64,000 nucleotides of DNA from Eledone cirrhosa (lineage: Eukaryota), in assembly GCA_964016885.1 (NCBI GenBank), contig OZ024751.1, positions 48,794,001 through 48,858,000 of the forward strand, written 5' to 3'. Below, piece by piece: positions 41,624 through 42,267 of the stretch. The notes under the pieces were generated by a model. That model did no database searches and had not been told where the DNA came from. It worked only from the letters and a program-made list of their open reading frames with translations. Within the stretch, counting starts at the first letter, position 1, and each line of letters starts with the position of its first letter. The position numbers and the translations under genes were made by a program.

Positions 41624-42262
41624 GGTAATACACTGTATGCTTAATTACAAGCATTTTGAAAACCTTACGCTATTGTTTTAAAGTAGTGTCTATGTCACTT
41701 ACTTCTTTTTTCAACAAACAAAGGGAGATAAGCTGACAGATCTCTGTTTCATACTGTTAGTACTCCTAAGAGCTTAGCACTCCCCTTATTTGTTGAATTA
41801 TAGAATTCCAGTAATAATCAGGAACTGATTATATAGAGCAGTTGCCGGTCCAGCAAAAATTGATAATTTAAATTGGTGCTCTGAAATAGCGATGTATATA
41901 TGAATGCATATATAGTGTATATATATTTCAGAGCACCAATTCTAATTTTCAATTTTTGATGGACCGGCAACCGCTCTGTATAATCAGGTCCTGATTATTA
42001 CTGGAATTCTATAAGAATCCAACATTCATAATTTTCAACAAACAAGGGGAGTGATAAGCTCTGAGGAATAGCAACAGTATGAAACAGATCTGTCACCTTA
42101 TCTCCCTTTGTTTGTTGAAAAAATAAGTAAGTGACATAGACACTACTTTAAAACAATAGCGTAAGGTCTTCAAAATGTTTTAAATTAAGCATACAGTGTA
42201 TTACCAAATACGCTATATATACAATCATATATACATCGCTATTTCAGAGCACCAACTCTAAT

Positions 42263-42267
<5 letters not shown>
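41624..42267. mobile_element. Inverted pair of ~315-nt retrozyme-like units, family F
   Basis: 41624-41920(-) and 41926-42267(+) are diverged, circularly permuted copies; the plus copy starts and ends with atttcagagcaccaa(t/c)tctaattttca. Confidence 0.85.
42053..42102 (+). ncRNA. Type I hammerhead ribozyme (family F)
   Basis: GATAAGCT-CTGAGGA-atagc aaca gtat-GAAA-CAGATCTG-TC-ACCTTATC; GUC site after 42094; stem I extended by caacaaacaaggggag / ctccctttgtttgttg; mirror copy at 41727-41778(-). Confidence 0.8.

What the first reader, a model, noticed from the sequence alone, without database searches (positions are those of the whole stretch)
41624..42267. Circularly permuted ~315-nt HHR units suggest a circular or concatemeric RNA template (retrozyme-like family F)
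The plus copy (41926-42267) begins and ends with the same ~27 nt. The minus copy (41920 to 41624) begins at atacactatata...catcgctatttcagagc and ends at gtgtattacca, which is where the plus copy continues. The two are therefore different permutations of one monomer. The unit has no ORF, a GUC-site HHR and a ~25-bp extended stem I. This is the pattern expected from reverse transcription of a small circular RNA (inference).
Basis: partly seen in the sequence, partly recalled or inferred. Interest (0 to 1): 0.85.

Follow-up and report, generated by a model that had tools for sequence, protein, structure and literature searches.

The report
Penelope-mobilised hammerhead repeat, retrozyme-like
A 316-base non-coding repeat carrying a self-cutting RNA motif has been copied many times into TA microsatellites in the pattern that Penelope-like retrotransposons leave; it resembles the known animal 'retrozymes', and whether its copies were made from an RNA circle remains unshown.

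Summary
The unit is 316 nt and 33% GC, has no ORF, and carries a canonical type I GUC hammerhead with a 20+6-bp stem I that shows compensatory changes. The two arms start and end at different points of this unit.

(1) The arms form a head-to-head inverted pair; a second such locus lies at 49506-49867. (2) The 3' ends are fixed at two sites about 60 nt apart, usually abutting (TA)n; only the 5' ends vary. (3) Two other hammerhead families in the window show the same pattern. (4) The minus-arm core is mutated.

Partial tandem, inverted copy, one-ended tail and TA target are the published signature of Penelope-like elements (PLEs), whose RT starts internally at two sites. Permutation therefore needs a more-than-unit RNA, but not necessarily a circle.

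A circle is plausible (about 45%): stem I clamps the cut ends, three of four arms are about one unit long, and such circles are known in mussel, coral and axolotl. An uncleaved linear tandem RNA (about 33%) is not excluded. Verdict: new member of a known kind; low to moderate interest.

The parts
41924..42267 (+). Plus arm: 344 nt = 1.09 units (q315 round to q26); ends at the long 3' site into (TA)n
   Evidence: 344/316 computed by hand because that line of the script was wrong
41924..41951 (+). 28-nt partial-tandem (pLTR-like) repeat of the arm's own 3' end (42240-42267), 27 of 28 identical
41623..41920 (-). Inverted arm: q283 round to about q279-281 (0.99-1.00 unit); ends at the short 3' site and lacks the tail; 19-nt deletion; hammerhead core CUUAGGA at 41770, GUC site at 41735
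41921..41925 (.). Junction between the two arms' 5' ends: a few TA
42032..42121 (+). Canonical type I hammerhead. Outer stem I 42032-51/42102-21; inner stem I 42055-60/42095-100; core 42061-67; stem II 42068-71/42077-80; GAAA 42081-84; palindromic stem III 42084-87/42090-93; cut after C42094. G42071 and C42096 are private mismatches; nearly all relatives have C and G there
   Evidence: table 3 (X6 first mate +: 202 of 211 and 489 of 502)
42196..42213 (+). Stem-loop (8-bp stem, 4-nt loop; perfect in the other locus) holding the short 3' end of the minus arm and the 5' starts of both inverted arms; candidate internal RT start site (inference)
   Evidence: folds and junction prints; analogy to PMC11167929
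42207..42267 (+). Tail of about 56-61 nt between the short and long 3' ends
42268..42336 (.). (TA)n target microsatellite; a degenerate TA-rich tract flanks the other arm at about 41577-41622
49565..49867 (+). Third arm: q42 round to q24 (0.95 unit), then (TA)n; hammerhead with U3-A8 core (49659-65), cut after 49695; Rfam HH9 match E 2.7e-4, below gathering score
49506..49568 (-). Inverted 5'-truncated piece (0.19 unit, tail only) joined to the third arm through a 4-nt overlap (49565-68); 3 substitutions in 58 against that arm's own tail

Best explanation
A high-copy, non-coding, non-autonomous retroelement of the animal non-LTR retrozyme type that borrows the RT/GIY-YIG protein of a Penelope-like element. 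Shown: the anatomy, two fixed 3' ends, inverted and partial-tandem insertion, TA targets. Inferred: the PLE protein nicks (TA)n on both strands and starts reverse transcription inside the RNA at one of two fixed sites (q~281 or q~21-26). Two cDNAs grow towards each other, stop at variable points and are joined at their element-5' ends by microhomology, giving head-to-head arms of different permutation. The template must be more than one unit long. Most likely it is a 316-nt circle made by hammerhead cleavage of a tandem transcript and ligation, with the 26-bp stem I holding the cut ends together. The PLE-type insertion part alone I put near 0.9; the confidence given is for the whole statement including the circle.
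For: Fixed 3' ends: 3 of 4 window arms end at q20-26 and 1 of 4 at q~281. In one search the letters from 42263 read as (TA)n in 41-55 contigs of X1 and in 163 of 165 first-mate-plus reads of X6 (about 30 starts). Both loci (2 of 2) have an inverted 5' arm. Another family in the window has 7 of 7 arms ending at one of two sites 55 nt apart, each into (TA)n, against about 2.5% of positions lying just before such a run. The pattern matches PMC8557442 (passages) and PMC11167929. For a circle: canonical rather than minimal hammerhead (definitions in PMC4209133); compensated long stem I (partner positions 42038 and 42115 change in 191 of 271 and 364 of 528 X6 first-mate-plus reads); circular fold z of -5.3, -5.0 and -6.9; arm lengths 1.09, 0.99, 0.95 and 0.19 units; circles shown by northern blot in coral, mussel and axolotl (PMC7229834).
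Against: No locus in the window has two hammerheads in tandem (0 of 2), and a circle needs such a source. No autonomous partner was found. In vitro a PLE used unprocessed RNA and hammerhead mutants inserted normally (PMC11167929). Only 1 of 9 Xenopus dimers self-cleaved (bioRxiv 10.64898/2026.07.22.740005). Two 5' ends fall at q276-283, as a linear RNA start or a hairpin stall would give. The tail is longer than the 30-40 bp described, and both arms at 49.5 kb carry it. The antisense strand also folds well (z -2.6 to -5.7), and most of the signal is the one hairpin. The share of TA-ending reads at 42263 is biased, since molecules that read on also lie on the first repeat; in X1 it is only 1504 of 17991 by depth. 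n = 4 arms.
Confidence: 0.45

Rival explanations
1. The same non-autonomous PLE passenger, but copied from linear, uncleaved tandem or ~1.2-unit transcripts, or with a template jump across a nicked monomer held by stem I. Any circles are by-products.
For: PLE RT initiates internally and hammerhead cleavage is dispensable in vitro (PMC11167929). No 5' end in the window lies upstream of q276, and both inverted arms start at q276-283, as an RNA running q~280 to q26 with a ~60-nt redundancy would give. 0 of 2 loci are true dimers. Li et al. found many monomers and little cleavage.
Against: It gives no clear use for a compensated 26-bp stem I and a canonical ribozyme kept across subfamilies; PLE pLTR ribozymes are usually minimal with a short helix I. 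The coincidence at q276-283 is also explained by the hairpin there.
Confidence: 0.33
2. The arms are 5'-truncated pLTR debris of a longer coding PLE, not an element of their own.
For: Most PLE insertions are 5'-truncated, and opposite-strand hammerhead pairs 100-700 bp apart were described as truncated PLEs (PMC4209133). Retrozymes are homologous to pLTRs.
Against: Upstream of one unit the sequence returns to the unit's own 3' end (41924-41951), not to an ORF. Head-to-tail joints of 305-316 nt stand in runs X1, X4 and X6, and X5 reads on past 42267 into the unit. No ORF in the unit; no GIY-YIG or PLE RT hit in 150 of 229 complex ORFs of the window.
Confidence: 0.13
3. DNA-level origin: satellite unit, fold-back duplication, two independent insertions into one microsatellite, or an assembly artefact.
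For: The arms differ by 15 of 219 positions and a 19-nt deletion; the region is dense in microsatellites.
Against: That divergence fits private drift in each arm (at least 11 listed positions where the plus arm differs from nearly all relatives), and arms this different are not an assembly mirror. At 49.5 kb the inverted piece is closest to its partner's own tail (3 of 58, against 5-6 for other pairs). The same end grammar recurs in other families. The compensatory changes point to selection on RNA.
Confidence: 0.05

Closest known systems
Non-LTR retrozymes of animals (Cervera and de la Pena 2020, PMC7229834; Li, Clavereau and Pollet 2026, bioRxiv 10.64898/2026.07.22.740005)
   Same: Canonical type I hammerhead in a non-coding unit of 170-400 nt and low GC, self-paired fold, high copy number, proposed PLE mobilisation; solo monomers are common in some families.
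   Different: No tandem dimer at either window locus; circular RNA and cleavage not shown. Here the copies carry two fixed 3' ends, a tail and inverted arms, which the parts of those papers that I read do not describe for retrozymes.
EN+ Penelope-like elements and their non-autonomous derivatives (Craig et al. 2021, PMC8557442; Frangieh et al. 2024, PMC11167929)
   Same: Partial tandem, inverted 5'-truncated copy, optional tail at one end, AT-rich or microsatellite target, hammerhead about 110-170 nt upstream of the 3' ends.
   Different: No ORF; canonical instead of minimal hammerhead; tail about 60 nt instead of 30-40; partner clade unknown.
Rfam Hammerhead_HH9 (RF02275, clan CL00010)
   Same: The third copy matches core, stem II and loop II at E 2.7e-4.
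   Different: 23.4 bits against a gathering score of 52. The plus copy gave no hammerhead hit at E up to 10, and nothing in the window reached gathering.
Plant LTR retrozymes (as described in PMC7229834 and PMC7761336)
   Same: Non-autonomous hammerhead element with a proposed circular intermediate.
   Different: Those have type III hammerheads, LTRs, PBS/PPT, 600-1000-nt units and high GC.

Membership tests
Non-LTR retrozyme | Canonical type I hammerhead (helix I about 6 bp plus internal loop, helix II 4 bp, short palindromic helix III) | tested here: met
   loop 1-loop 2 contacts inferred from the layout only
Non-LTR retrozyme | Unit of about 170-400 nt, GC below 45-50%, no ORF | tested here: met
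   316 nt, 33% GC, longest ATG frame 26 aa
Non-LTR retrozyme | Highly self-paired predicted circle | tested here: met
   circular MFE z -5.0 to -6.9 against 60 shuffles, about 60% paired; dominated by the hammerhead hairpin
Non-LTR retrozyme | Tandem copies with at least two hammerheads | tested here: inconclusive
   0 of 2 window loci; head-to-tail joints exist, but no listed piece spans even one unit; no genome held
Non-LTR retrozyme | Expressed as linear and circular monomer RNA; self-cleavage | not testable with these tools
   needs RNA data or a bench assay
Non-LTR retrozyme | No LTR, PBS or PPT | not tested
   not searched formally; no tRNA gene in the window
PLE-type insertion | Partial tandem forming a pLTR-like terminal repeat | tested here: met
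   28-nt repeat in the plus arm
PLE-type insertion | Inverted 5'-truncated copy adjacent to the 5' end | tested here: met
   2 of 2 loci
PLE-type insertion | Two 3' end sites with an optional tail | tested here: met
   3 of 4 arms long, 1 of 4 short; tail about 60 nt. The short site rests on one arm with a TA-like, ambiguous flank
PLE-type insertion | AT-rich or microsatellite target | tested here: met
   2 of 4 ends abut pure (TA)n, 1 a degenerate TA tract, 1 a GA tract; table 3
Autonomous PLE | RT plus GIY-YIG ORF | tested here: not met
   none in the unit; none in 150 of 229 complex ORFs scanned
Non-autonomous derivative of a specific PLE | Homology to the pLTR of a coding PLE in the same genome | not testable with these tools
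   no genome held; motif scans of metagenome and viral contigs gave 0
Plant LTR retrozyme | Type III hammerhead in LTRs, unit 600-1000 nt | tested here: not met
   type I, 316 nt

The most novel reading that the evidence does not exclude
The genomic copies record a PLE reverse transcriptase starting internally at two fixed sites on a small circular RNA and stalling near one full turn, where it meets its own cDNA. The minus arm stops within about 1-3 nt of one turn, and the other long arms at 0.95 and 1.09. A very high-copy family with two start sites would let copy-end statistics alone decide whether retrozyme circles are the real templates of PLE insertion, a step proposed in 2014 and 2020 and not shown in the papers read here.
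Probability: 0.3. Interest if true: 0.6.

Novelty: new member of a known kind. Interest (0 to 1): 0.3.

Why it matters
Animal hammerhead repeats of this size are a described class, and PLE mobilisation through circles is already proposed, so the element itself is not surprising. Its value is as a test case. It joins a retrozyme-type canonical ribozyme to the PLE mechanistic fingerprint (two 3' ends, one-ended tail, inverted arms); the links I read rest on co-occurrence and sequence homology. Two start sites also give a clean genome-wide test of circle against linear template. A search for retrozyme + target-primed + Penelope + tail + inverted returned only Craig 2021, and hammerhead + cephalopod + retrozyme likewise. 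Subscription journals are not covered, and the supplement of PMC7229834 could not be read.

Tried and rejected
No whole genome is held, so copy ends could not be mapped genome-wide.

Sequencing runs: no RNA holder listed; this says nothing on expression.

Read-end pile-ups in RAD run X6 at 41951, 42005, 42008, 42183 and 42186 all sit on AATT words. I rejected them as restriction ends (inference from sequence), along with the heterogeneous loose ends at 41951, 42008 and 42186. No pile-up at the ribozyme cut 42094/42095 is listed, but only 5 of 6 pile-ups and 23 of 460 loose ends were shown, so this was not used. Summed contig depth (up to about 438,000 in X1) was not used as a copy number or to place ends. 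Opposite-strand joints were not counted, since several lie in the hairpin and each rests on one contig or one start.

Rfam: nothing at gathering in the window; the miRNA hits reflect the inverted arms. Motif scans of metagenome and viral contigs: 0. Earlier findings by place, by sequence and by one word set: none.

I first read the third copy's UUGAUAA core as dead (note 29). I rejected that after PMC4209133 described U3-A8 as a natural core covariation, and a contig of organism B shows the same core (table 7). The LINE at 55-60 kb is rejected as the partner: it has an AP-type endonuclease and does not explain tails or one-tailed inverted pairs (established knowledge). A tRNA-derived SINE reading found no support: ARAGORN 0. 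Target-site duplications could not be read in the microsatellite flanks.

Full report
Setting. The window is AT-rich, microsatellite-dense animal-type DNA. My impression of a cephalopod is recalled and untested. No genome is held. Positions in the unit are given as q (q1 = 41926).

1. Observation. The unit period is 316 nt. The plus arm runs 41924-42267 (344 nt, 1.09 units; computed by hand because that line was wrong), with its first and last 28 nt 27 of 28 identical. The minus arm runs 41920 to 41623, from q283 round to q279-281. They are indeed different permutations. The unit has no ORF (longest ATG frame 26 aa on either strand) and is 33% GC. A descriptor scan found 4 hammerheads in the window, two of them in these arms, against 0 per window with 0-1 core mismatches in 10 shuffles. 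The plus arm has a full core at 42061 and a GUC cut after 42094; the minus arm has CUUAGGA, which by established knowledge of the core is probably inactive. Stem I has 20 outer and 6 inner pairs (z -5.3). On three copies 93% of cells pair and 4 of 32 pairs change on both sides (8 of 500 shuffles as high; slid controls 39-48% paired, weak with three related rows).

2. A third and fourth arm lie at 49506-49867: a plus arm q42 to q24 and an inverted piece covering only q~276 to q20, joined by a 4-nt overlap. Both loci are therefore head-to-head inverted pairs. The outer 3' ends are not random: 3 of 4 fall at q20-26 and 1 of 4 at q~281, in the loop of a small hairpin, leaving a tail of about 60 nt between the two sites. 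Two ends abut pure (TA)n, one a degenerate TA tract and one a GA tract. The third arm's ribozyme has a U3-A8 core, a natural covariation in PMC4209133, and hits Rfam HH9 at E 2.7e-4, below gathering. The plus arm has no Rfam hammerhead hit.

3. Related sequence. Four of eight listed runs were laid on 41921-42275 at 80% likeness: 4514 contigs from X1 and 6632 reads from RAD run X6 (organism A), 32 contigs from organism B and 14 from organism C, covering 30, 30, 30 and 29 of 30 bins. The family is therefore abundant in A and present in two other organisms; depth is not a copy number. Nearly all relatives have C at 42071 and G at 42096 (X6 first mate plus: 202 of 211 and 489 of 502), which restores stems II and I, so the window copy has decayed from an intact canonical ribozyme. 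The stem I partners 42038 and 42115 both vary (191 of 271 and 364 of 528). By eye, the loose ends at 42021 and 42120 show a subfamily whose two stem I arms are both different yet complementary; that they belong to the same copies is not shown. Letters from 42263 read as (TA)n in 41-55 contigs of X1 and 163 of 165 X6 first-mate-plus reads from about 30 starts, so many independent copies share the long 3' end. The share is biased upward, and is only 1504 of 17991 by depth at 42263 in X1. Head-to-tail joints (back 305, 312, 316) stand in X1, X4 and X6. X6 read-end pile-ups are restriction ends and were discarded.

4. Neighbours with the same grammar. A second family (arms at 779-1030, 1032-1361, 6029-6299, 8118-8361, 8742-8813, 8899-8927, 24161-24425) has 7 of 7 arms ending at one of two sites 55 nt apart, each into (TA)n. 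Two of its loci are inverted pairs with the tail on one arm only. Its hammerhead at 1106 has, by eye, the minimal PLE layout of PMC4209133 (long helix II, short helix I, unpaired base before helix II); its fold alone is not above shuffles. A third family at 44999-45131 and 45701-45833 is an inverted pair with a hammerhead and a one-sided extension of about 85 nt. No PLE ORF was found in 150 of 229 complex ORFs; the only RT is a broken AP-endonuclease LINE at 55-60 kb.

5. Mechanism. Craig et al. (PMC8557442; 12 passages seen) describe PLE insertions as 5'-truncated partial tandems with an adjacent inverted copy, a 30-40-bp tail often at one end only, and microsatellite bias. Frangieh et al. 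(PMC11167929; abstract, results and part of the methods) show that a PLE protein nicks and extends both strands of AT-rich DNA and starts reverse transcription internally at two sites that define the tail, one in an AC-rich stem-loop; hammerhead cleavage was not needed. Applied here (inference): two cDNAs start at the long or short site, stop at variable points and are joined by microhomology, which yields both the inversion and the different permutations. All three long arms cross the cut site, so the template was not a simple cut-to-cut linear monomer.

It was a circle, an uncleaved tandem RNA, or a nicked monomer bridged by stem I. For a circle: the ribozyme is canonical; the long, compensated stem I would clamp the 5'-OH and cyclic-phosphate ends of a monomer; arms measure 1.09, 0.99, 0.95 and 0.19 units; and such elements accumulate as circles in coral, mussel and axolotl (PMC7229834; parts 1-4 of 6 read; supplement not readable). 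Against: no tandem dimer in the window; the in vitro PLE result; only 1 of 9 Xenopus dimers cleaved (Li et al. 2026 preprint; parts 1-3 of 5 read); and two 5' ends at q276-283, which also fit a linear RNA start. I put circle at 0.45, linear or jump at 0.33, pLTR debris at 0.13 and DNA-level origin at 0.05.

6. Known or new. It works like a non-LTR retrozyme and inserts like a PLE. Membership of the retrozyme class is probable but not established, because tandem dimers are inconclusive and circular RNA is untestable here. It is not an autonomous PLE and not a plant LTR retrozyme. Circles as templates for more-than-unit PLE copies were proposed in PMC4209133 (parts 1-2 of 4 read) and PMC7229834, and reviewed in PMC7761336 (12 passages). 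PMC4209133 also notes opposite-strand hammerhead pairs 100-700 bp apart. What may be new is the pairing of a canonical retrozyme ribozyme with the PLE two-site tail signature (searches; open-licence papers and bioRxiv only). Two earlier AI notes from other genomes reached similar readings; they are leads, not support.

Verdict: real, new member of a known kind, interest 0.3.

Noticed in passing
window 734-1401, 6029-6342, 8104-8361, 8689-8978, 24128-24425: Second non-coding hammerhead family (about 330 nt; core at 1106 + and 979 -) with a minimal PLE-type ribozyme. 7 of 7 arms end at one of two sites 55 nt apart into (TA)n; two one-tailed inverted pairs. Two copies share the same 5' start next to an AA(A/G)ATGGCG word that by recall resembles a YY1 site, hinting at a linear unit with an internal promoter.
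   Followed up: partly
window 44913-45833: Inverted pair (44999-45131 -, 45701-45833 +) with a long-helix-II hammerhead (core 45733; mutated at 45099) and a one-sided extension of about 85 nt to (TA)n, flanking 570 nt of non-coding sequence.
   Followed up: partly
window 43253-43649, 62132-62426, 6962-7337, 16393-16536, 46325-46408, 49291-49340: Further short inverted pairs or palindromes, most with at least one end at a TA run; possibly truncated inverted insertions of other families.
   Followed up: no
window 55218-60431 (-): Broken LINE: Exo_endo_phos (57716-58603), RVT_1 (56424-56825) and zf-RVT (55221-56258) in separate frames, with upstream ORF1-like frames that have no Pfam hit.
   Followed up: partly
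window 88-182, 4273-4380, 5151-5464, 13411-13705, 32267-32679, 34842-35038, 38785-39188, 40799-40895, 43318-43562, 54662-54915: Abundant dispersed SINE-like repeat of about 190-250 nt, many copies 5'-truncated; at 5156-5464 two copies are inverted, at 38785-39188 two are in tandem. ARAGORN finds no tRNA.
   Followed up: no
window about 19200-22500; 33631-34812; 38231-38691; 46860-47778: Tandem arrays: 32-nt minisatellite (about 100 copies), an array near 34 kb, four 115-nt units, and a 325-nt direct repeat at 99%. The hammerhead scan found none in them.
   Followed up: no
41993 loose end (X6 1455 reads; X5 record 18, 340 nt): A related family shares q1-q68 and then continues with different sequence, in organisms A and C; possibly a sister unit sharing the same end module.
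   Followed up: no
window 49659-49665 and X4 loose end at 42052: The U3-A8 hammerhead core variant recurs in organism B, so it marks a subfamily rather than a private mutation.
   Followed up: partly
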